64,000 nt of DNA. Origin: an uncultured Bacilli bacterium (GTDB lineage Bacteria > Bacillota_I > Bacilli_A > RF39 > UBA660). The stretch is from assembly GCA_947589535.1 (NCBI GenBank), contig CANQAS010000001.1, forward strand, positions 12,101 through 76,100. Direction: 5' to 3'. Below, in pieces: positions 30,860 to 39,478 of this stretch. The position numbers were made by a program, and so were the translations under genes. How positions within the stretch are numbered: position 1 is the first letter of the stretch; every line of letters starts with the position of its first letter. The notes under the pieces are model-generated. The model was not told the origin of the DNA. It saw nothing but the letters and a program-made list of their open reading frames with translations, and did no database searches.

Positions 30860-32557
30860 TTAAACTAATACAAATACTATAATTGCTGATACAATTACCA
30901 AAACAAATAATGATAATAAAACTTTCCAAATGTATTTAAACCATTTACCATAAGGAATGTTTAAATAATATAAACCTATTATTAATCCTACTGATGTAGG
31001 TGCAATAATCATCATTAAATAGTAAATACTTTGTGCTATTAGAGCAATAACACCATGAAGATTTGTATCACTTACTATACTAGTAAATATTGAAGCTACA
31101 GATGATACGAAGTAGTAAAAATCTGCAGTTAACACACTACCTACGATTGTTGATAAAGTGATCGTAGCAATATTAAATCCTTTTGTTAAAGTTGCAATCC
31201 AATTACATATTGTAATATTTATTCCTGTAGTAACAGATATTACAAGAACAATGCTAATTAACATAGCTGTAATTGCTACTGGAAGTACCTTCTTTATACC
31301 ATTAGTAGTAGATGATATGAATTCATCTAATTTAACTTTTTTACATATTGCTATTACCGCGGTAATTATGAATAAGAAAATAGCCATATCAGTCATTGAC
31401 CAAGATCCTATAGCACTAATTACTCCAGTTGTTGAACCAGTTGTACTATCAGTTATCATTGGAGAACCAATCACATTATTAAATATTTCATAGTTTCCTA
31501 TTTTTAAGTTTGATAACCAAGTATTAAGATCTGAAAATACAGTAAATTTAGTAAATAATGATTCCCAAGGAATAATTGTACATAATGTAAATAGTACGAA
31601 TAAAACTAAGCTAGTTGCAAATAAGACGTTTTCTCTTCTGCTACTATTAACAGAAATATTACCATCTTTATCAGCTTTTTCAGTTAAAACGGTTATAAAT
31701 TCTGCAATCGATAATATTGTAGGTATTAAAGTCCAACAGAAAATAATATTTAAAATTCCGGCTTTTACTTTACCAGCATAAAATTTATTAATACCAATAG
31801 TTCCTAATAATATAGTTAGAACTGCATAAATAATTTTATTAACTTTTCTTTCTTTTGATGACTGCTTTTTAACGGTTTTAACCGTTGTGCTTTTAGTAGT
31901 TTCCTTAATTATATTCTTATCCGAAGCTTTTTTTACAGTCTTCTTTTTCTTATTCGAATAATTAACTTTTTTTGGTGCAGTAAAGAAAATTAAGATTGCT
32001 AATGATAATACTAACACTATTAGTTTAACTAATAATAAAGTATTTACTTTTAAATTGAACATGGTAAATAAAGTATTATCATAAATACCATTCATAGCTC
32101 CAACAAATGTAGCTATTATAGTTGATGATAAAATAACTTTTTTATCAATTTCTAATGTCTTCATAACTTGATAAATAAATGGCATAAACATAATTAATAT
32201 CATTGCATCTTTTACCAAGCAAGCTAAAATTCCAAATACTATTATAGTAATAGTAACTAATAAGCCTTCTTTATTCTTAAAAATAGCAGCTGTATTATTA
32301 ACAAATTTGTTATATACATCTAATTTGTTCATTATTGCGTAAAAACAAGCAACAGCTATTAAGAATACCGCAATACCATTAAAATATGATATTGAAATGC
32401 TTAAATTAGATAATAAACCGGCAATACCAACACCACTTACCGTATCAGTAACTACATTACCATTATAATCTAAGTATGATGCGGGTATAAATAAGGTCAA
32501 AAGCCAAGTTACAATAACTGTTATTGCAAGCACTTTGAATAAATTATACTTTTTCAT
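30860..32557 (-). CDS. polytopic permease-like membrane protein with an internal Lys-rich linker and TM2 domain
   Basis: More than 10 TM helices, with flanks that loosely resemble YfcC/IT-superfamily permeases. The central segment ILLGTIGINKFYAGKVKAGILNIIFCWTLIP fits the TM2 domain pattern. The start is trimmed to the ATG at 32557, after GGGAGG. Confidence 0.5.
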   Translation of the reverse strand: MKKYNLFKVLAITVIVTWLLTLFIPASYLDYNGNVVTDTVSGVGIAGLLSNLSISISYFNGIAVFLIAVACFYAIMNKLDVYNKFVNNTAAIFKNKEGLLVTITIIVFGILACLVKDAMILIMFMPFIYQVMKTLEIDKKVILSSTIIATFVGAMNGIYDNTLFTMFNLKVNTLLLVKLIVLVLSLAILIFFTAPKKVNYSNKKKKTVKKASDKNIIKETTKSTTVKTVKKQSSKERKVNKIIYAVLTILLGTIGINKFYAGKVKAGILNIIFCWTLIPTILSIAEFITVLTEKADKDGNISVNSSRRENVLFATSLVLFVLFTLCTIIPWESLFTKFTVFSDLNTWLSNLKIGNYEIFNNVIGSPMITDSTTGSTTGVISAIGSWSMTDMAIFLFIITAVIAICKKVKLDEFISSTTNGIKKVLPVAITAMLISIVLVISVTTGINITICNWIATLTKGFNIATITLSTIVGSVLTADFYYFVSSVASIFTSIVSDTNLHGVIALIAQSIYYLMMIIAPTSVGLIIGLYYLNIPYGKWFKYIWKVLLSLFVLVIVSAIIVFVLV

Positions 32558-32693
32558 ATATCCTCCCATAATTATATTATTTGATTTGTGAGACAAAATT
32601 ATGACAATTAGCACCATATGTATAATTCTGCCCTACATATAAATTATACCATATTTTACCATTATATAATAAAAAAAAACTAAAAAGTCTTTT

Positions 32694-33665
32694 TTATAAT
32701 GTAGCAATATAACTTTCTATTGTACTTATAAATTCTTCCTTAGTTTTTATTTCGTATAATTTTTTCTTTATACTAACACTATTTGGTAGTCCTTTTAAAT
32801 ACCATGCTCCATGGGTTCTCATTTCTAACACTGCTACCTTTTCGGGTTTTATTTCAAGTAAATACTCAAAGTGCTTTAAACATGTTTTTAATTTTTCTAC
32901 TGGCGTTTGATCAGGTATTATAATACCTTTTTCTAAATAAGTAACAATTTGTTTTATTAGGTATGGGTTACCAAGTGTACCTCTACCAATCATAACCGCA
33001 TCACAACCCGTTTCATCAAACATTCTTTTAGCGTCATATATTGTTAATATATCTCCATTACCAATTACAGGAATACTTATATTTTCTTTAATTTCTCTTA
33101 TAATGCTCCAATCTGCTTTGCCTGCGTACCCTTGGCTGCGTGTTCTAGGATGGATAGCTATAGCATCAGCTCCTGCTCTTTCGCAAACTTTAGCTACTTC
33201 TACAGCATTAATAGAATTATTATCCCAACCACTTCTAATTTTAACAGTAACAGGAACATTAACCACTTCCTTAACAGCACTTACTATGTCATAAATTTTA
33301 TCTAAATCCTTTAGAAGTGCTGACCCTGCTTGTGATTTAACAGCAACTTTTGGAACAGGGCATCCCATATTTATATCTATAATATCGGGGTGCATTGTTT
33401 CCTCTATTATCTTAGCGGCCTTGACAAAACTATCTTTATCACTACCAAATATTTGCTGGGTAATAGGTCTTTCTTTTTCTGTCATATAAAGCATCTCTTT
33501 AGTTTTTTCATTATCATAAACAAGTGCTTTATCACTAACCATTTCGGCATATAATAATCCACATCCCATTTCTTTTACTATTCTTCTAAAAGCACTATTA
33601 CAAACTCCTGCCATCGGCGCTAAACAAACGTTGTTTTTAATTTCTACATTTCCTATCTTAAACAT
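32694..33665 (-). CDS. dusB: tRNA-dihydrouridine synthase
   Basis: LAPMAGV, DINMGCP and IGNGDI motifs. The start is trimmed to the ATG at 33665. Confidence 0.9.
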   Translation of the reverse strand: MFKIGNVEIKNNVCLAPMAGVCNSAFRRIVKEMGCGLLYAEMVSDKALVYDNEKTKEMLYMTEKERPITQQIFGSDKDSFVKAAKIIEETMHPDIIDINMGCPVPKVAVKSQAGSALLKDLDKIYDIVSAVKEVVNVPVTVKIRSGWDNNSINAVEVAKVCERAGADAIAIHPRTRSQGYAGKADWSIIREIKENISIPVIGNGDILTIYDAKRMFDETGCDAVMIGRGTLGNPYLIKQIVTYLEKGIIIPDQTPVEKLKTCLKHFEYLLEIKPEKVAVLEMRTHGAWYLKGLPNSVSIKKKLYEIKTKEEFISTIESYIATL

Positions 33666-33690
33666 GCCAATCACTTCCAAACTAAATTAA

Positions 33691-33727
33691 TTATATAATA
33701 AAAAGAAACATTTTTATAGTTTCTTTT
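33691..33727 (-). terminator. rho-independent terminator closing the three-gene cassette
   Basis: 9-bp stem AAAAGAAAC / GTTTCTTTT (33701-33727) with a 9-nt loop, directly after the TAA at 33728. A U-rich tail follows on the minus strand. Confidence 0.6.
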
Positions 33728-33901
33728 TTAATTTCCAATACGTTTAGTTTTAATCTTTGAATAACCTTTAGAATCTTTTTTACAATTTAAATCAGTGAAT
33801 TTTGAATAAGATTTACTATTTTTCTTTTCTTGTTCGTTCGCATATTTAATAATATTTTCTATCTTAGTATTTTGTTGCTTTTTAATACTACTACTTTTCA
33901 T
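33728..33901 (-). CDS. small lysine-rich basic protein (57 aa), unknown function
   Basis: ATG at 33901 preceded by AAAGGAAA. The ORF-track TTG start at 33958 has no SD. It is the third gene of the cassette. Confidence 0.4.
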   Translation of the reverse strand: MKSSSIKKQQNTKIENIIKYANEQEKKNSKSYSKFTDLNCKKDSKGYSKIKTKRIGN

Positions 33902-33987
33902 TATACTAATTTTCCTTTCATGTAATTGATATTGTAACATATTAATAAAATAAATCAACTAAAATACTTAAATATTATTAATTATTT

Positions 33988-34269
33988 TTATTGTTTAGAA
34001 ATCAAATACTCTCCAACCATATTTTTTATCATTTCAAAATATACTAACATCGCTTCTAAATAATCATCTTCGCTTAAATTAGCATTGAATAAGTCTTTTA
34101 TTTCTCTGTTCTGTAAATAGTGTAACTCTATTCCATCTTGATTTGCTAATTCAACAATACTATTACCTAAATTCATCAAAGAGTCGTATAATTCTTTTCT
34201 CTTACCATTCGTATCTAATTTTTTAACTTCGTTCATGTAGTTTTCAAATGCTTGATTTATCTCTTCCAT
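33988..34269 (-). CDS. small acidic, probably all-helical protein (93 aa), unknown function
   Basis: TAGGAGA SD, and only a 10-nt gap after the upstream gene stop, so it is probably co-translated in an operon. Confidence 0.55.
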   Translation of the reverse strand: MEEINQAFENYMNEVKKLDTNGKRKELYDSLMNLGNSIVELANQDGIELHYLQNREIKDLFNANLSEDDYLEAMLVYFEMIKNMVGEYLISKQ

Positions 34270-34279
34270 TATATATCTC

Positions 34280-35788
34280 CTATCTTTTAATCGAGCTATC
34301 TGAAGATAATTTATTTTTTCTCATTTTTTCCTTAGCTTTTTCCAGAAATGATTTTTCTTTATATTCTTGCTTTGCTTGCTCTTTTTCTAACTCTAATCTA
34401 TTTTCTAAATCTTTTAATTTTTGTAATTCATTTTCATGCATTCTTAACGAAGCTTCCGCCTTTTCTAGTTGTTCTTGAGCTGCAACTAAATCTTCTTTTG
34501 AATGACCAACTATTATATCCCTTGTTTTTTCATCATGAATATATTCTTGATGCTCTGGAATTATTTTCCTATCGACAGGCCCATCTCCAGGAGCTCTATT
34601 TGTACTTACTTCAACAACTTTTTCTTCAACATATTTAGTTTTATAAGCCTCTGCCTCTTTAGTATCATGTATAAATTTTAGATGACTTTGGTTTTTTCTT
34701 AAATTTTCTACTTCATCAATTAATCTTTTAACAATTTCTTCTTTATTTTTAATTTGTTGGCGTAAATCATCTATTTTTCCCTGTTTATTAATCTCTTGTT
34801 CTATCTTTTCTACTTCTTTTTTCTTTGGATCAAATGATTTATCATTTATTTTTTCTTCGCATTTCTGAACTTCTTTTTTGTACCTTTCTTCAAGTGCAGG
34901 TAAAGTTTTGGCAAATGAATCAAAATATTTTGATGTATAATTCAAACTTTCAATAATATGTTTTAGTTCTTGGCAATTATATAAATTAAATTTTGCATTT
35001 TGTAATTCAACATATTCCTTTCTAGCTGAAGATAATTTGTTCCTATCTTTTTGACTTTCAGTTTTACGCATTAAATCATCTATTTTTCCTATTTCGGGAA
35101 CAATCCATGGATGAAAATTATCCGTGCCTTTTATCATTTCCATTTGATTTATTTTATTACTATTTTGGGCATTTACTTTTTTAGCATTTTTTTCCAAATA
35201 AAATGAAGAGAAAGTATGATGCGCCTGATTTATAATTTCACTTTCATGTCCTTTTCTAATACCAAAATCAGATAAAAGAGAGTCAACATATGTGTAGTAA
35301 TTTGAATCTCCAGGTTTACCTTTTAAAATATATTTTCCTTTTTCTATTTCGTTACCATATTCATCATATGATGGTAATTCACCAGAAATTCTATAATGAC
35401 ATTTATAATTTTCTCCATATTTTTCAAGTATCCTAATAACTTCTGTTAATTGAGCTTTAGCATCAGAAAAAACTTTTTTTCTAATTCTATCTAAATCAAA
35501 GTTTCTACTTTCTGATAAATTATTTACTAAATTATTTATTTTATTAGAAAAATTTTCATATTCAGACAGAAGATTATTAGCATAATCAATAAGATGTTCT
35601 GCCTTTTTCATTTCTTCATCCATTTTACTATAATTTTGTAAATCCCTATCAGACATAGATGATGTTTTTATTTTACTAACTCGCTTTTGTATTATAAATT
35701 TAATCAATGCTAGTTGATTATCTGTTGTGTAATATAAACTATTATCATATACATCAGCTGATTTTACTGATGAAATCTTTATTTTCAT
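34280..35788 (-). CDS. 502-aa coiled-coil-rich cytoplasmic protein, unknown function
   Basis: AGGTGA SD 6 nt before the ATG. No signal peptide, TM helix or P-loop. Long K/E-rich heptad-like stretches flank a central globular region (residues about 125-260). Confidence 0.6.
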   Translation of the reverse strand: MKIKISSVKSADVYDNSLYYTTDNQLALIKFIIQKRVSKIKTSSMSDRDLQNYSKMDEEMKKAEHLIDYANNLLSEYENFSNKINNLVNNLSESRNFDLDRIRKKVFSDAKAQLTEVIRILEKYGENYKCHYRISGELPSYDEYGNEIEKGKYILKGKPGDSNYYTYVDSLLSDFGIRKGHESEIINQAHHTFSSFYLEKNAKKVNAQNSNKINQMEMIKGTDNFHPWIVPEIGKIDDLMRKTESQKDRNKLSSARKEYVELQNAKFNLYNCQELKHIIESLNYTSKYFDSFAKTLPALEERYKKEVQKCEEKINDKSFDPKKKEVEKIEQEINKQGKIDDLRQQIKNKEEIVKRLIDEVENLRKNQSHLKFIHDTKEAEAYKTKYVEEKVVEVSTNRAPGDGPVDRKIIPEHQEYIHDEKTRDIIVGHSKEDLVAAQEQLEKAEASLRMHENELQKLKDLENRLELEKEQAKQEYKEKSFLEKAKEKMRKNKLSSDSSIKR

Positions 35789-35821
35789 ATTACGTCACCT
35801 GCACTTTCCTATGTTAATAAT

Positions 35822-35848
35822 AACATAACACCCCCCCCCGGATGTCAA
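35822..35848 (-). promoter_or_regulatory. sigma-A type promoter with a G9 tract in the spacer
   Basis: The minus strand reads TTGACA (35848-35843) tccGGGGGGGGGtgt TATGTT (35827-35822). TG is in the extended -10 position. The spacer is 15 nt. Confidence 0.5.
35831..35839. repeat. C9/G9 homopolymeric tract
   Basis: Nine consecutive C on the plus strand. The next-longest G/C runs I found in the window are 5 nt. Confidence 0.95.
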
Positions 35849-35883
35849 GCGAATCAAACTGTGGAAAAGAAAAAATGTAAACC

Positions 35884-35910
35884 ATAAAAAAAGATAGAAA
35901 CTTCTATCTT
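35884..35910 (-). terminator. rho-independent terminator after the femAB-family gene
   Basis: 8-bp stem AAGATAGA / TCTATCTT with a 4-nt loop, overlapping the TAG stop. T7 follows on the minus strand. Confidence 0.65.
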
Positions 35911-37145
35911 CTTGCTCTTATAAATTTTAAAATTTTCATACCTAAATTAAATAATGCGTAATAAAACTTATTTATAACTAAATCGTATTCTCCAACTAAT
36001 TCTAATACGTTGGGATTAAATTTTGACTTAAACGTTGATAAATGATCTTCTAAAGAACCATCTACCCCACCTAAATCACAATAATCACAACCTCTTTCTA
36101 AGCAATAACATAATCTATAAAACATAAGACCATTAGTTATTTTTAAAGATGGTAATATTTTTGTATTAGTACCAGCATATAGGAATGATGCAGTTTTAAT
36201 TCCACTTTCGCACGAAGGCATCATAACGATTGTCGCTCCAGCAAGTGGTTTTGGACCAAATTCCTTTTTTATATTTTCAGCTTCCATTATTTGTTTTTTG
36301 CAAAATTCTTTTTTATTTTCATGTTCTTTCATATCTTTCTTTAAAAACGAAATATATTTATCTATGTCCACTCTCGCAAAAAACAAAACAGCATTGTCCG
36401 GAAAACATTCCATTACTTTTTTAAAATAATTTTCACTTCGAAGTGCAATGTGTTGCCTTTCTTCCGTACAACGAAGAACACTTACTAAATCTCTAACGTC
36501 CTTTGGATCAGTTGAAAAGCTAAATTCCACACCACGTTCTTCTTGATAAGAACCAATATAATTTCTAGTATTTTTAGGAAAACTTCTTCTTAATTCTTCT
36601 TTATCCAAAGCATTTCCATTAATATCCTTTAATGAAATAACCATGGTGTATCTTGGCTGTATATATGCGTTAACTTCCTTTTTAAATCCCCCATGAATAA
36701 AACCTAAACTCTTTAAATTAGATGTTATTTCTTCAGCTCCCTTAGTGAAACTTTTTCTTATTTCAATACCCTTATTTTTCTTAATGTTTTGAATATTATC
36801 CTCATTAAAGCATATAAATGGATCTATTTTAATGTCTATTGCACCATTTTTTTTAGCATATTTTTTTAATTCTAATATAAACATTTCAAGTAAATTCTTA
36901 TTCATATAATCAATTACAAAACCTCTTGGAATATAAAATAATTTTTTACCTAAGAACAAGTTCCTTTTTAATATCATTGCGGCGCATACTATCTTATCTT
37001 TATCATACATACCAACTAAATCATGTTCCCAAGCAGTTTTAACATCTGCCCAACTTGACGTTTGCATAAAAGATGTTGACGGAAAATTTTTTACAAATGA
37101 ATCATATTCTGCTTTATTAATACCAGATTTGAATTCATATCTCAT
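35904..37145 (-). CDS. FemAB/MurM-family peptidoglycan interpeptide-bridge aminoacyltransferase
   Basis: 413 aa. The N-terminus FMQTSSWADVK...LFYIPRGF is typical of FemAB-family proteins. Confidence 0.7.
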   Translation of the reverse strand: MRYEFKSGINKAEYDSFVKNFPSTSFMQTSSWADVKTAWEHDLVGMYDKDKIVCAAMILKRNLFLGKKLFYIPRGFVIDYMNKNLLEMFILELKKYAKKNGAIDIKIDPFICFNEDNIQNIKKNKGIEIRKSFTKGAEEITSNLKSLGFIHGGFKKEVNAYIQPRYTMVISLKDINGNALDKEELRRSFPKNTRNYIGSYQEERGVEFSFSTDPKDVRDLVSVLRCTEERQHIALRSENYFKKVMECFPDNAVLFFARVDIDKYISFLKKDMKEHENKKEFCKKQIMEAENIKKEFGPKPLAGATIVMMPSCESGIKTASFLYAGTNTKILPSLKITNGLMFYRLCYCLERGCDYCDLGGVDGSLEDHLSTFKSKFNPNVLELVGEYDLVINKFYYALFNLGMKILKFIRARR

Positions 37146-38289: not shown

Positions 38290-38820
38290 ATGGTAATAAT
38301 TATAGTTATATTAGTAATAGGAATAATAATAGTACTTTATAACATATATTATGATAAATTAAATTTTGTTATTTCAAAGCTAGATAATATAGAAGAAAAA
38401 CTAAAAAGTACTTTGCTAAAAAGAAAAGAACTTATTAAAGATGCAGAAAAACTTATTAAAGAAAAGCTTAAAACGGAAAAAGTCATATTTGATGGTTTAG
38501 AAAATCTAAAGGACAATGCAAATATGATGGAATTAGATAGAAAACTACTAATATACATAGGTGAATTTCATCTTATAAAAGAAAAATATGCAAAACTTAA
38601 TAAAGATGAAAACTTTCAAAAAATCGCCTTTGCGATTGCAGAAACAGAAGATTTACTTAATGCGTATAAAGAATATTACAATGATAATGCTAGTAAGTAT
38701 AATAAGATAATTAAAACATTTCCTTTGATTATAACTACTATTTTAAAAAGAAGAAAAGAAAAATTATTCTTTGATAATAAATCAATTAATGATATAGATT
38801 ATTCTGATTTTAGATATTAA
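38290..38820 (+). CDS. LemA-family-like membrane-anchored protein
   Basis: N-terminal TM helix followed by a helical domain of LemA-like size and layout. Motif conservation is weak. Confidence 0.45.
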   Translation: MVIIIVILVIGIIIVLYNIYYDKLNFVISKLDNIEEKLKSTLLKRKELIKDAEKLIKEKLKTEKVIFDGLENLKDNANMMELDRKLLIYIGEFHLIKEKYAKLNKDENFQKIAFAIAETEDLLNAYKEYYNDNASKYNKIIKTFPLIITTILKRRKEKLFFDNKSINDIDYSDFRY

Positions 38821-38827
38821 AAAGAGA

Positions 38828-39478
38828 TTACCAATTAATCTCTTTTTTATTAATCTTTTTTAAATATTCATTTGATTTTGAAAAAGGCTTACTTCCAAAA
38901 AAACCATTATATGCGGAAAGTGGCGATGGATGAGCTGACTCTATTACATAGTGATTAGGGTTAGTTATCATTCTTTTTTTATCTCTAGCTTGTCTTCCCC
39001 AAAGTATAAATACTACATTATCTAATTTATCATTTATCTGTTTTATAACAAAGTCAGTAAATATCTCCCAGCCAATATCTTTATGAGAATTAGCCTTATC
39101 CTTTTCTACCGTTAAAACCGTATTTAGTAAAAATACACCTTGTTTAGCCCAATCTGACAAATCAGTATCACACCTATCTATACCTAAGTCATCATGCAAT
39201 TCTTTAAATATGTTTCTAAGTGAAGGTGGAGTTCTAACACCTCTTCTTACCGAAAAAGATAATCCCATTGCTTCTTTTTCACCATGGTAAGGATCTTGTC
39301 CTAATATAACAACTTTAATGTTATTAAAATCAGTTAGTTTGAATGCATTAAATAAATCCTGAGCTGGCGGATATATGGTTTTTGAAAGTCTCTCGTTTTT
39401 AACAAACTCTTTTACATACTTAAAATAACTTTTTTGCATTTCATCTTGCAAAATTTCATCCCAACTATTATGAAACAT
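38828..39478 (-). CDS. ung: uracil-DNA glycosylase
   Basis: GQDPYHG and HPSPLS motifs. Confidence 0.96.
   Translation of the reverse strand: MFHNSWDEILQDEMQKSYFKYVKEFVKNERLSKTIYPPAQDLFNAFKLTDFNNIKVVILGQDPYHGEKEAMGLSFSVRRGVRTPPSLRNIFKELHDDLGIDRCDTDLSDWAKQGVFLLNTVLTVEKDKANSHKDIGWEIFTDFVIKQINDKLDNVVFILWGRQARDKKRMITNPNHYVIESAHPSPLSAYNGFFGSKPFSKSNEYLKKINKKEINW

What the first reader, a model, noticed from the sequence alone, without database searches (positions are those of the whole stretch)
33691..35788. Self-contained three-gene cassette of uncharacterised proteins (502-aa coiled-coil, 93-aa acidic, 57-aa basic)
The unit is cleanly delimited. The upstream femAB-family gene ends in its own terminator (35884-35910). 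The cassette has its own promoter (35822-35848) and ends in its own terminator (33691-33727), before dusB.

- **Gene 1, 502 aa.** It has no signal peptide, TM helix or P-loop. Long K/E-rich coiled-coil stretches flank a globular core of about 135 aa (CHYRISGELPSYDEYGNEIEKGKYILKGKPGDSNYYTY...).
- **Gene 2, 93 aa.** It follows after 10 nt with its own SD, and is acidic and helical-looking.
- **Gene 3, 57 aa.** It is very lysine-rich.

I recognise no family for any of the three. An acidic small protein paired with a basic small protein, behind a large scaffold-like protein and under a potentially switchable promoter, resembles the layout of accessory systems such as defence, toxin/immunity, or sporulation-associated assembly factors. 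That comparison is speculation.
Basis: inference. Interest (0 to 1): 0.6.

Follow-up and report, generated by a model that had tools for sequence, protein, structure and literature searches.

The report
Phase-variable two-gene module plus bystander
The "three-gene cassette" is a two-gene accessory module of unknown function (a fast-diverging coiled-coil protein with a conserved tail, plus a conserved small acidic partner) behind a slippage-prone poly-G promoter, one of well over a hundred near-identical such promoters in an uncultured gut Bacilli clade; the third gene is an unrelated resident small gene.

Summary
The unit is not a three-gene cassette.

**Module (g502 + g93).**
- g93 (93 aa, pI 4.4) is a clade-restricted, strongly conserved protein: 41 clusters, all at least 61% identical.
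- It almost always lies next to a highly variable K/E-rich helical protein. These partners fall into three families that are otherwise unrelated.
- All three families end in the same basic tail of about 30 aa (…YKKKSFLEKxKxKLKxK…DSMKM). A tail HMM finds only these proteins among 19,062 ORF segments.

**g57.** It belongs to a small basic protein family that sits upstream of dusB in most relatives, with or without the module, and it has its own promoter.

**Promoter.**
- It carries a G9 tract between the −35 and −10 elements. The tract is G8, G9 or G10 in strains 99.8–99.9% identical, and it is the only indel in 3.6 kb.
- The same promoter module recurs at least 128 times in related MAGs. Most copies sit upstream of envelope or secreted proteins, and some upstream of WXG100 clusters.

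**Function.** No homology or fold match was found.

**Best reading.** This is a phase-variable contingency locus. Its small acidic protein docks on the shared tail of polymorphic client proteins. The docking is inferred, not shown.

The parts
35884..35910 (-). Intrinsic terminator of the upstream femAB-family gene. It marks the upstream boundary of the variable slot.
   Evidence: Hairpin plus U-run, -10.1 kcal/mol, z -3.8. Conserved in relatives.
35859..35868 (-). Conserved upstream promoter element TTTTCCACAG, about 10-14 nt upstream of the -35 hexamer.
   Evidence: Present at more than 50% per-position conservation in 125 copies of the promoter module across the clade. Coordinates. Its function is unknown; a regulator or UP-like site is inferred.
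35843..35848 (-). -35 hexamer TTGACA.
   Evidence: Sequence. Conserved in all module copies.
35831..35839 (-). Poly-G tract (G9) in the promoter spacer: a slipped-strand, phase-variable element.
   Evidence: G8, G9 or G10 in 9 assemblies that are 99.7-99.9% identical, and the only indel in 3.6 kb. G9, G10 or G11 in a second species. G8 and G10 in two more. The only G/C run of 6 or more in the window.
35817..35825 (-). Extended -10 element TGTTATTAT (TGn + TATTAT).
   Evidence: Conserved TGnTATTAT/TATAAT in all related promoters. Spacer to the -35 hexamer is 20 nt at G9, against 16-17 nt in 77% of the 128 family copies.
35804..35816 (-). Conserved TAACATAGGAAAG box, the probable transcription start region and 5' UTR start.
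   Evidence: (N)AACAT is part of the search pattern, and AG(G/A)AA follows it in most copies.
34280..35788 (-). g502: polymorphic K/E-rich helical protein (family A), the client of the module. RBS AGGTGA at 35795-35800.
   Evidence: An exhaustive HMMER search of 1.84e9 representatives gave only 3 true relatives at 34-35% identity, plus one compositional hit. The AF2 model is long helices, pLDDT 71, with no PDB fold match. It holds 8 of the 10 within-species SNP sites in 3.6 kb.
34283..34369 (-). Conserved C-terminal tail of g502 (aa 474-502, QEYKEKSFLEKAKEKMRKNKLSSDSSIKR; pI 9.9). It is the only region shared by all partner families.
   Evidence: Alignments. hhalign family A against family B aligns only the tail, E 3e-7. 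The tail HMM hits only g93-adjacent proteins. Synonymous codon differences indicate protein-level constraint.
33988..34269 (-). g93: conserved small acidic helical protein, the core of the module. Its RBS overlaps the g502 stop codon (TAGGAG).
   Evidence: 41 clusters, all 61-100% identical, with 31 invariant columns. AF2 gives four helices, pLDDT 71. No Pfam, PDB sequence or fold match. Zero SNPs among strains.
33931..33958 (-). Independent sigma-70-type promoter of g57 (TTGATT-16-TACAAT with TG).
   Evidence: Promoter scan. g57-family genes stand alone after the femAB terminator in relatives.
33728..33901 (-). g57: resident small basic protein of the dusB-upstream family. It is not part of the module.
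   Evidence: The family is aligned across 16 loci with the motif SKSYPK(F/Y)xDxNxK(P)NTKGYSK. The profile search gave 33 clusters, all unnamed. Present without g93 or g502 in at least 12 loci.
33691..33727 (-). Intrinsic terminator after g57, before dusB.
   Evidence: -8.3 kcal/mol, z -3.4.

Best explanation
The region holds two evolutionary units.

**Unit 1 (35868-33988, minus strand).** This is a phase-variable, bicistronic accessory module.
- A sigma-A-type promoter has a poly-G tract as its -35/-10 spacer. The tract changes length by slipped-strand mispairing, so transcription is switched or tuned stochastically.
- The first gene (g502 here) is a rapidly diversifying and exchangeable helical 'client'. 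Its only constant feature is a ~30-aa basic amphipathic C-terminal tail.
- The second gene (g93) is translationally coupled to the first. It is a conserved acidic four-helix protein that most likely docks on that tail as a dedicated chaperone or adaptor.
- The same promoter cassette mainly drives envelope, secreted, pilin and WXG100/T7SS-type genes elsewhere in the clade. The client is therefore most likely delivered to, or acts at, the cell envelope or surface as part of a variable repertoire.

**Unit 2.** g57 is a resident monocistronic small basic protein gene upstream of dusB.

**Shown:** the anatomy; the polymorphism; the shared tail; the tail/g93 co-occurrence; the tract-length variation; the promoter family.

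**Inferred:** tail-g93 binding; the effect of tract length on transcription; an envelope destination.
For: **Variable slot and mosaic structure**
- The content of the femAB-dusB slot differs among 29 related species.
- DNA is conserved only at the promoter (~100 nt) and at the tail + g93 block (76-90% identity). The middle cannot be aligned.

**g93 and its partners**
- g93 is 80-90% identical in loci where the partner is 31-35% identical or unrelated.
- A tail-bearing partner lies next to g93 in 10 of 11 lineages and in two genomic contexts.
- Families A, B and C share only the tail.
- The tail HMM hits nothing else in 19,062 ORF segments covering 1.7 Mb.
- The tail is kept by synonymous codons, and also where it does not abut g93.
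- Charges are complementary: g93 pI 4.4, tail pI 9.9.

**Poly-G tract**
- G8, G9 and G10 occur among 99.8-99.9% identical strains, and the tract is the sole indel.
- G9, G10 and G11 occur in a second species.
- Promoters without a tract are invariant.

**Promoter family**
- At least 128 near-identical poly-G promoters were found in clade MAGs. Spacers are 16-17 nt in 77% of them.
- 84 of 116 first downstream ORFs have an N-terminal hydrophobic anchor.
- Five copies head WXG100/DUF4176 clusters.

**Precedent**
- Promoter homopolymer tracts alter transcription in Bordetella fim genes (PMC1891110).
Against: - No experiment or co-fold shows that g93 binds the tail. AF-multimer was not available.
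- Tail and g93 are adjacent in the DNA, so their co-inheritance alone does not prove an interaction.
- With G8-G10 the window promoter has a 19-21-nt spacer. All sampled alleles may therefore be weak or OFF, and the ON length is unknown.
- g502 has no signal peptide, so the envelope association rests only on shared regulation.
- 18 of 116 genes downstream of these promoters are cytoplasmic-looking.
- Both AF2 models have modest confidence (pLDDT 71).
Confidence: 0.55

Rival explanations
1. The module is a type VII secretion (T7SSb) substrate with 'reverse' organisation. The variable N-terminal body is an effector. The C-terminal helix and tail, together with the small helical partner g93, form the composite targeting signal. 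Variable genes after g93 in some loci would be immunity genes.
For: - Relatives carry WXG100 + DUF4176 clusters headed by the same poly-G promoter.
- The client is helical and has no signal peptide, and a ~93-aa helical partner is encoded next to it.
- Reverse T7 substrates with small helical partners that bind a C-terminal helical domain exist: TslA with TlaA1/TlaA2 (PMC10730906) and TslM (PMC13560087).
- Extra variable genes follow g93 in L036 (176 aa), L061 (544 aa) and L060 (136 aa).
Against: - g93 has no Trp and no WXG motif, and gives no WXG100 Pfam hit in 18 members. A genuine clade WXG100 protein scores above the cutoff.
- There is no LXG hit and no YxxxD/E or FxxxD motif in the tail or in g93.
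- The shared region is only ~30 aa.
- The bodies show no toxin domain.
- The window cassette has no candidate immunity gene.
- No tail or g93 relative lies in any of the T7SS-type loci.
- The four genomes in which those clusters were seen lack g93.
- T7SS in the window's own genome is unverified.
Confidence: 0.15
2. The client is an intracellular coiled-coil scaffold, like the coiled-coil-rich or intermediate-filament-like proteins of other bacteria. Its C-terminal amphipathic helix tethers it to the inner face of the membrane, as in MinD/FtsA-type targeting sequences. g93 regulates its assembly.
For: - The AF2 model has long helices, including 246-383 and 430-494.
- 26% of residues are K+E.
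- The tail has hydrophobic residues at i, i+1, i+4 and i+8, flanked by Lys. From general knowledge, it resembles the MinD targeting sequence KKGFLKRLF.
- The nearest Foldseek matches are generic long-helix and F-BAR proteins, none significant.
Against: - Housekeeping scaffolds are not normally patchy (3 of 185,579 species), swapped between unrelated families, or placed behind phase-variable promoters.
- The polar ...DSMKM end after the helix and the strict linkage to g93 remain unexplained.
Confidence: 0.15
3. The pair is a toxin-antitoxin or anti-phage (abortive infection) module. The basic amphipathic tail, or the client as a whole, is harmful. Acidic g93 neutralises it.
For: - Distribution is patchy and the site is a variable hot spot.
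- The genes are tightly coupled, and the upstream partner is fast-evolving.
- A full-length tail-bearing protein was never seen without g93, whereas g93 occurs without a partner in L023.
- Phase variation is common for defence genes (general knowledge).
Against: - No PADLOC, Pfam or NCBIfam hit.
- No phage, plasmid or viral-contig relatives.
- The neighbours are housekeeping genes, not a defence island.
- In TA pairs both partners usually co-vary. Here one is nearly invariant and the other is replaced outright.
- L023 looks like decay, with a promoter deletion and a shortened g93.
Confidence: 0.1
4. The tract-length differences are assembly or sequencing artefacts of a homopolymer, and the promoter is constitutive.
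For: - The contigs have only ~5.6-6.2x coverage.
- Homopolymers are error-prone.
Against: - The ENA assemblies and the independent Logan assemblies give matching tract lengths on matching SNP haplotypes, for example L053 = L031 with G10 and L052/L056 with G8.
- Tract length varies in two species, while promoters without a tract are invariant.
- 128 further copies keep an uninterrupted G8-G11 tract in 28%-GC genomes. This argues for selection for mutability.
Confidence: 0.07

Closest known systems
Promoter-located homopolymeric-tract phase variation. Examples: Bordetella fim2/fim3/fimX 'C-stretch' promoters (PMC1891110); from general knowledge, Neisseria porA/opc and Mycoplasma hyorhinis vlp.
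   Same: - An uninterrupted homopolymer lies between or next to the -35 and -10 elements.
- Single-base length differences occur among closely related strains.
- Many loci per genome are involved, most encoding surface proteins.
   Different: - The host is an uncultured gut Bacilli lineage.
- One ~70-nt promoter cassette is reused at least 128 times with conserved flanking boxes (TTTTCCACA upstream, AACATAGRAA downstream).
- An effect on transcription has not been measured.
- The window copy has an unusually long 19-21-nt spacer.
Reverse-orientation T7SSb substrates with small helical partners: TslA + TlaA1/TlaA2 (PMC10730906) and TslM (PMC13560087).
   Same: - A variable N-terminal body is joined to a C-terminal helical region.
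- A small helical protein is encoded alongside.
- There is no Sec signal.
- The clade has WXG100 clusters under the same promoter type.
   Different: - No sequence or motif match to WXG100, LXG or Lap families.
- The conserved region is only ~30 aa.
- No toxin domain or immunity gene is present.
- There is no linkage to T7SS genes.
Export chaperones of flagellar and type III systems (FliS, FliT, FlgN): small acidic helical proteins that bind C-terminal helices of coiled-coil clients.
   Same: - Size, acidity and all-helical fold.
- Adjacency to a coiled-coil client with a conserved C-terminal segment.
- FliT appears among the non-significant fold matches.
   Different: - No Pfam hit to FliS, FliT or FlgN.
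- The best Foldseek E-value is 2.3.
- No flagellar genes were seen in any locus.
Shared C-terminal targeting peptides on unrelated cargo, such as encapsulin cargo-loading peptides and MinD/FtsA membrane-targeting helices (general knowledge).
   Same: A short conserved C-terminal peptide is the only common feature of otherwise unrelated proteins.
   Different: - No encapsulin or HK97-fold shell gene is present.
- The receptor candidate is a 93-aa helical protein.
- Membrane binding is untested.
Polymorphic toxin / immunity cassettes.
   Same: - A hot-spot locus with conserved ends and a swapped middle.
- A small gene lies immediately downstream.
   Different: - The polarity is inverted: the end next to the small gene is the conserved part, and the small protein is nearly invariant.
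- No trafficking or toxin domains are detected.

Membership tests
Phase-variable (contingency) promoter with homopolymeric tract | Uninterrupted homopolymer within the core promoter (between -35 and -10) | tested here: met
   TTGACA-TCC-G9-TGTTATGT-TATTAT at 35848-35817.
Phase-variable (contingency) promoter with homopolymeric tract | Tract length differs among otherwise near-identical strains | tested here: met
   G8, G9 or G10 in assemblies 99.7-99.9% identical, and the only indel in 3.6 kb. G9, G10 or G11 in a second species.
Phase-variable (contingency) promoter with homopolymeric tract | Tract length changes transcription; mixed lengths within a population | not testable with these tools
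No expression data are available.
WXG100 / ESAT-6 family (PF06013), for g93 | Pfam WXG100 match and a central W-x-G motif in a ~100-aa helical hairpin | tested here: not met
   No hit at E of 5 or below in 18 family members. g93 has no Trp. A true WXG100 protein of the clade scores 32.6 bits against a cutoff of 27.3.
T7SSb substrate (LXG or reverse LXG-like), for g502 | LXG or LXG-like helical targeting domain; export motif (YxxxD/E or FxxxD); linkage to T7SS genes | tested here: not met
   No LXG Pfam hit. The motifs are absent from the tail and from g93. No tail or g93 relative lies in the WXG100 loci.
T7SSb substrate (LXG or reverse LXG-like), for g502 | T7SS-dependent secretion | not testable with these tools
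   This needs an experiment.
Toxin-antitoxin or known anti-phage defence systems | Match to a known TA or defence protein model | tested here: not met
   PADLOC gave 0 hits for all three proteins. Pfam and NCBIfam gave nothing above cutoff.
Flagellar / T3SS export chaperones (FliS, FliT, FlgN), for g93 | Sequence or fold match to the family | tested here: not met
   No Pfam hit. The best Foldseek E-value is 2.3; the FliT entries have E above 7.
Flagellar / T3SS export chaperones (FliS, FliT, FlgN), for g93 | Binds the C-terminal helix of its client | not testable with these tools
   No multimer prediction was available. Binding is inferred only from co-occurrence and charge complementarity.
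MinD/FtsA-type C-terminal membrane-targeting sequence, for the tail | Short amphipathic helix at the C-terminus that binds membrane | tested here: inconclusive
   The hydrophobic pattern is S-[FL]-[LF]-x-x-[AILM]-x-x-x-[LMVIF], flanked by Lys. AF2 keeps a helix to residue 494. It is followed by 8-14 polar residues. Membrane binding is untested.
   g57 has its own promoter. The g57 family occurs without g93 or g502 in at least 12 loci, and g93 modules occur without it.
Small acid-soluble spore proteins or other named small basic proteins, for g57 | Pfam or NCBIfam match | tested here: not met
   No consistent hit among 11 family members. All 33 database clusters are unnamed.

The most novel reading that the evidence does not exclude
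The ~30-aa tail and g93 may form a previously unrecognised targeting pair, that is, a peptide signal plus its dedicated receptor or chaperone. This pair would route interchangeable, fast-evolving coiled-coil proteins to a secretion machine or to the cell surface in an uncultured gut Bacilli lineage. The locus would be one output of a clade-wide 'phasome', in which a single conserved poly-G promoter cassette, reused more than 100 times, stochastically switches most of the organism's surface, pilus and T7SS repertoire.
Probability: 0.2. Interest if true: 0.8.

Novelty: new variant of a known kind. Interest (0 to 1): 0.62.

Why it matters
**The protein pair.** If the reading holds, two orphan proteins become a defined system. 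A short conserved tail marks otherwise unrelated proteins as clients of one small conserved partner. This is a testable new protein-protein recognition module.

**The promoter family.** This uncultured, reduced-genome gut Bacilli clade appears to rely on homopolymer slippage at one reusable promoter cassette. That cassette sits upstream of dozens of surface and secretion genes per genome. A contingency-locus strategy on this scale is known from Campylobacter, Neisseria, Haemophilus and mycoplasmas. In a brief literature search I found no description of it for gut commensal Bacilli.

**Practical uses.**
- The promoter motif gives a simple sequence handle for cataloguing phase-variable genes in these MAGs.
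- It also warns that single-base homopolymer differences in such assemblies may be biologically meaningful.

Tried and rejected
**Homology and fold**
- Pfam, NCBIfam, PADLOC and PHROGs gave nothing for the three proteins.
- Pfam on all members of the g93 and g57 alignments gave nothing consistent.
- PDB sequence profiles for families A, B and C and for g93 gave nothing.
- Foldseek against PDB found no match for either AF2 model. The best E-values were 0.9 and 2.3, all generic long-helix proteins.

**Collection searches for relatives**
- g502 has no relative in the GTDB genomes.
- The word-indexed search found one near-identical hit only, probably swamped by K/E-rich words. The exhaustive search found three real relatives.
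- P0004 (1784 aa, 15 repeats) matches only the C-terminal coiled coil. I treat this as compositional.
- g93 is absent from JGI metagenome contigs, IMG/VR, phage records and plasmids.
- The tail alignment was too degenerate for a collection scan.

No read-level or RNA evidence was available, and read laying was not attempted.

**Ideas rejected**
- Mobile element or inverton: no flanking inverted repeats and no GC anomaly.
- Riboswitch or sRNA: Rfam gave nothing.
- Sporulation sigma promoter: the hexamers are sigma-A-like.
- A TraG/VirD4-like identity that I suspected for the 544-aa gene after g93 in L061: no Pfam or PDB support.
- A DnaA-box reading of TTTTCCACA: it is part of the repeated promoter cassette, so this is unlikely.
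Full report
**1. What is at the coordinates**

The minus strand carries three ORFs in series:
- g502 at 35788-34280 (502 aa);
- g93 at 34269-33988 (93 aa), which starts 10 nt after the g502 stop, with an RBS (TAGGAG) overlapping that stop;
- g57 at 33901-33728 (57 aa).

Upstream lie a femAB-family gene (35904-37145) and a PduL-type phosphotransacylase. Downstream are dusB and a TM2/transporter gene.

There is no terminator between g93 and g57.

The protein descriptions hold:
- g502 has no hydrophobic segment and no P-loop, and 26% of it is K+E.
- g93 has pI 4.4 and g57 has pI 10.0.
- None of the three matches Pfam, NCBIfam, PADLOC or PHROGs.

**2. The organism and the slot**

The femAB neighbour has orthologues at 71-88% identity in 29 GTDB species. 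All are MAGs of an uncultured gut Bacilli lineage, labelled Candidatus Aphodocola, Clostridium sp. CAG:594, 'uncultured Bacilli/Mollicutes' and similar.

PTAC-femAB-...-dusB-TM2 is syntenic in these genomes, but what lies between femAB and dusB varies:
- nothing (50-120 bp);
- only a small basic ORF;
- unrelated membrane, zinc-ribbon or secreted proteins;
- g93 with various large partners.

So the cassette sits in an accessory-gene hot spot. Its GC content is not atypical. It has no flanking inverted repeats.

**3. The three genes are not one unit**

*g57.* It belongs to a family of 45-71-aa basic proteins (motif ...SKSYPK(F/Y)xDxNxK(P)NTKGYSK...). These lie directly upstream of dusB in most relatives, with or without g93 or g502. 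A profile search found 33 clusters, all unnamed. Further copies turned up in loci fetched for other reasons. g57 has its own TG-extended promoter, TTGATT-16-TACAAT. It is a resident gene that the module happens to abut.

*g502.* Its family is tiny.
- The word-indexed search found only a 99% identical copy.
- An exhaustive HMMER pass over 1.84 billion representatives found three real relatives at 34-35% identity. One of them is a truncated 208-aa remnant. A fourth hit was compositional.

*g93.* It is strongly conserved. All 41 clusters are 61-100% identical, with 31 invariant columns, including GKRKELYDS and SEDDxLExMLVYxExxKNxxGEYL. It is rare: 3 of 185,579 GTDB species carry it. It is absent from JGI metagenome contigs, IMG/VR, phage records and plasmids.

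**4. The real module: g93 plus a tail-bearing partner**

In 11 lineages g93 lies in one of two contexts: the femAB-dusB slot, or rpsP-khpA-[partner]-g93-NUDIX. It almost always lies next to a K/E-rich helical protein of 189-502 aa.

These partners fall into three families with no detectable similarity in their bodies:
- A: g502, L003_492, P0002, P0003, and the N-terminus of L036_469;
- B: L045_438, L014_449, L036_328;
- C: L042_254, L044_189, L048_213.

All of them end in the same ~30-residue tail: Y-K-K-x-S-[FL]-[LF]-E-[KR]-x-K-x-x-[LM]-K-x-K-(polar)-[DN]-S-M-K-[MIL].

Evidence that the tail is a distinct protein-level module:
- Profile-profile comparison of A against B aligns only the tail (probability 93%, E 3e-7). 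A against C also aligns only the tail (E 1e-3).
- A tail HMM hits only these proteins, always at the extreme C-terminus (E 1e-9 to 1e-13), among 19,062 six-frame ORF segments from 1.7 Mb of clade DNA. The next best hit has E 6e-3.
- The tail codons differ synonymously between loci.
- The tail is kept where the gene does not abut g93, as in L036_328 and the L014 gene downstream of g93. It is therefore not a by-product of g93's translation start.

At the DNA level the loci are mosaics. About 100 nt of promoter and a 3' block of tail + g93 are conserved (76-90% identity), and the middle cannot be aligned. Within the window's species, 8 of the 10 SNP sites in 3.6 kb fall in g502 (5 non-synonymous, 3 synonymous). 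None falls in g93 or g57.

Two loci look like decay:
- L005 has a truncated family A gene with no tail and no g93.
- L023 has g93 without a partner and a promoter deletion.

**5. Structure**

- AF2 on a 4-sequence alignment models g502 as long helices: 47-127, 182-216, 246-383 and 430-494. Residues 134-161, 197-226 and 386-417 have low confidence (pLDDT 71 overall).
- The family's invariant residues cluster at 105-235. A conserved non-coiled-coil core is therefore plausible but was not modelled.
- g93 is predicted as four helices (pLDDT 71).
- Neither model has a significant PDB match.

**6. The promoter**

*Layout.* TTGACA (35848-35843), TCC, G9 (35839-35831), TGTTATGT, and TATTAT with a TG extension (35825-35817).

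*Rarity of the tract.* The G9 run is the only G/C run of 6 or more in the 64-kb window, which is 28% GC.

*Variation within the window's species.*
- Nine assemblies from several samples are 99.7-99.9% identical over 3.6 kb. They carry G8 (2), G9 (4) or G10 (3), and the tract is the only indel.
- ENA and Logan assemblies with the same SNP haplotype agree on tract length. This argues against assembler noise.

*Variation elsewhere.*
- A second species, with a family C partner, shows G9, G10 and G11.
- Two more lineages carry G8 and G10.
- Loci whose promoter lacks a tract are invariant between samples.

**7. The promoter is one copy of a clade-wide family**

Every G/C run of 8 or more in the first ~0.9 Mb of clade sequence lies in the same module. 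About 0.24 such runs are expected by chance. The module reads (TTT)TCCACA-N10-14-AAAAAnC-TTGAC(C)-G8-13-N7-9-TATTAT-N-AACATAG(G/A)AA.

- Nearly all are in MAGs of this lineage.
- One MAG has at least 14 copies. The window's closest GTDB relative has at least 7.
- Tandem arrays reach six copies.

Tract lengths are G8 (23), G9 (70), G10 (29) and G11 (6).

The -35/-10 spacer is 16 nt in 69 copies, 17 nt in 29, 15 nt in 12, and 19-21 nt in 15.
- In the canonical form, one G more or less moves the promoter in or out of optimal spacing.
- The window copy belongs to the long-spacer subclass, with 19-21 nt at G8-G10. The sampled alleles may therefore be low-activity states.

Of 116 first downstream ORFs, 84 have an N-terminal hydrophobic anchor. 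Groups among the 116 include:
- a large family with ...VGYAxFSxxLTINGTA... after the anchor;
- 'VGRP + TM' families;
- prepilins;
- five copies that head clusters of WXG100 (Pfam 32.6 bits, cutoff 27.3) and DUF4176 proteins, meaning T7SS-type loci;
- sigma-70 proteins with long C-terminal extensions;
- 18 ORFs that look cytoplasmic.

Promoter homopolymer tracts are an established mechanism of phase variation, for example in Bordetella fim promoters (PMC1891110).

**8. Interpretation**

*Shown.*
- A two-gene accessory module, with a conserved small acidic protein and a replaceable partner.
- The partner's only constant part is a basic amphipathic tail.
- The module lies behind a hypermutable poly-G promoter of a family that mostly drives envelope and secretion genes.
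- g57 is a bystander.

*Inferred.*
- g93 docks on the tail. This rests on strict co-occurrence, adjacency and translational coupling, opposite charge, and joint conservation against a variable background.
- Tract length tunes expression.
- The client acts at the envelope.

I rank a generic chaperone/adaptor-client reading first (0.55). The more specific rivals:
- A reverse-orientation T7SS substrate with a targeting partner, by analogy with TslA/TlaA (PMC10730906). This is attractive because the clade has WXG100 clusters under the same promoters. Every sequence-level membership feature failed, however, and no linkage to T7SS loci was seen (0.15).
- A membrane-tethered coiled-coil scaffold (0.15).
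- A toxin-antitoxin or defence pair (0.10).
- A homopolymer artefact (0.07).

**9. Limits**

- No multimer prediction was available.
- Both AF2 models have moderate confidence.
- The genome-wide count of promoters is a lower bound.
- Presence of T7SS in the window's own genome is unknown.

**10. Verdict**

The 'three-gene cassette' and the 'acidic plus basic small protein' pairing are not supported.

What is there is a new, clade-restricted protein pair of unknown function with an unusual modular logic. It is embedded in a large and apparently undescribed poly-G contingency-promoter system. That makes it a new variant of a known kind of regulation, driving novel proteins.

Noticed in passing
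window 35804-35868; loci L001-L176 (for example L004:14834, L004:20995, L157 with six copies, L098, L172): A ~70-nt promoter cassette, TTTTCCACA-N-AAAAAnC-TTGAC(C)-G8-13-TATATGA-TATTAT-nAACATAGRAA, recurs at least 128 times in MAGs of this clade. One MAG has at least 14 copies. Every G/C run of 8 or more seen in the first ~0.9 Mb lies in it.
   Followed up: partly
L069:58-7870, L073, L075, L118, L154 (downstream of the poly-G module): These are T7SS-type clusters in relatives: an 82-aa YukD/EsaB-like ORF (not confirmed by Pfam), four or five ~95-104-aa WXG-motif proteins (one confirmed as PF06013), DUF4176 (PF13780), and large proteins of 477-688 aa. All sit under a poly-G promoter.
   Followed up: partly
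L076:4350 onward (689 aa); similar N-termini in L144 (731 aa); also L142, L148, L160 (742-806 aa): Poly-G promoters also drive a sigma-70-family protein (regions 1.2, 2, 3 and 4 confirmed by Pfam) with a ~290-aa K/E-rich C-terminal extension. That would make a sigma factor itself phase-variable.
   Followed up: partly
L157:1133-6082, L172, L098, L062, L127, L171: There are tandem arrays of ~210-250-aa paralogues. Each has its own poly-G promoter and an N-terminus of the form K-rich + TM + (V/I)G(Y/F)(A/S)xF(S/N)xxLxIxGTA. From memory this resembles TasA/SipW-type signals. Pfam gave no hit for one member.
   Followed up: partly
L001:10236-11531, L007:11395-12072, L013:9945-10373, L024:11334-13435, L027:3110-4195: In other species the femAB-dusB slot holds unrelated cargo: a 431-aa secreted-looking protein, a zinc-ribbon/RDD membrane protein, a lipoprotein, and others. 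It is a general accessory-gene hot spot.
   Followed up: partly
L032:196-2935; L049:1161-2222: A second variable slot lies between the uracil-DNA glycosylase and LemA genes. One species has an S24/S26 peptidase-like gene plus a 527-aa gene there. Another has a 353-aa gene with a G11 promoter. The slot is empty in the window (38820-38828).
   Followed up: no
L036:6303-6833 (176 aa); L061:4842-6476 (544 aa); L060:1885-2295 (136 aa, equal to the N-terminal part of the 544-aa protein): In some lineages additional variable genes follow g93. They have no Pfam or PDB match, and the L060 copy is truncated. They could be further module components, for example immunity-like genes.
   Followed up: partly
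L030:12109-13085 (= L053:3605-4468): In one strain dusB is called as 287 aa, and the tblastn match is split (1-291 and 287-328). This suggests a frameshift or an assembly error near its 3' end.
   Followed up: no
intergenic region after the femAB terminator in L003, L005, L036, L045, L048, L014; window ~35876-35883: A palindrome, TTTACA-N6-TGTAAA, directly follows the femAB terminator in relatives. Only the first half (GGTTTACA) remains in the window. It may be an operator.
   Followed up: no
P0004 (1784 aa): This is a very large protein with about 15 tandem ~92-aa repeats that resemble the C-terminal coiled coil of g502 (residues ~346-486). I judged the similarity compositional. Its origin is unknown.
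   Followed up: partly
window 30860-32617 versus L036:8075-9843, L045, L048: The 585-aa TM2-domain/transporter gene downstream of dusB is a single ORF in the window. In several relatives it is split into two genes, a CitMHS-like gene of ~254 aa and a TM2 gene of 334 aa.
   Followed up: no
window 33665-33680: The mechanical dusB ORF starts at a TTG (33680). Orthologue alignments begin at residue 6, so the real start is probably the ATG at 33665 (MFKIGN...).
   Followed up: no
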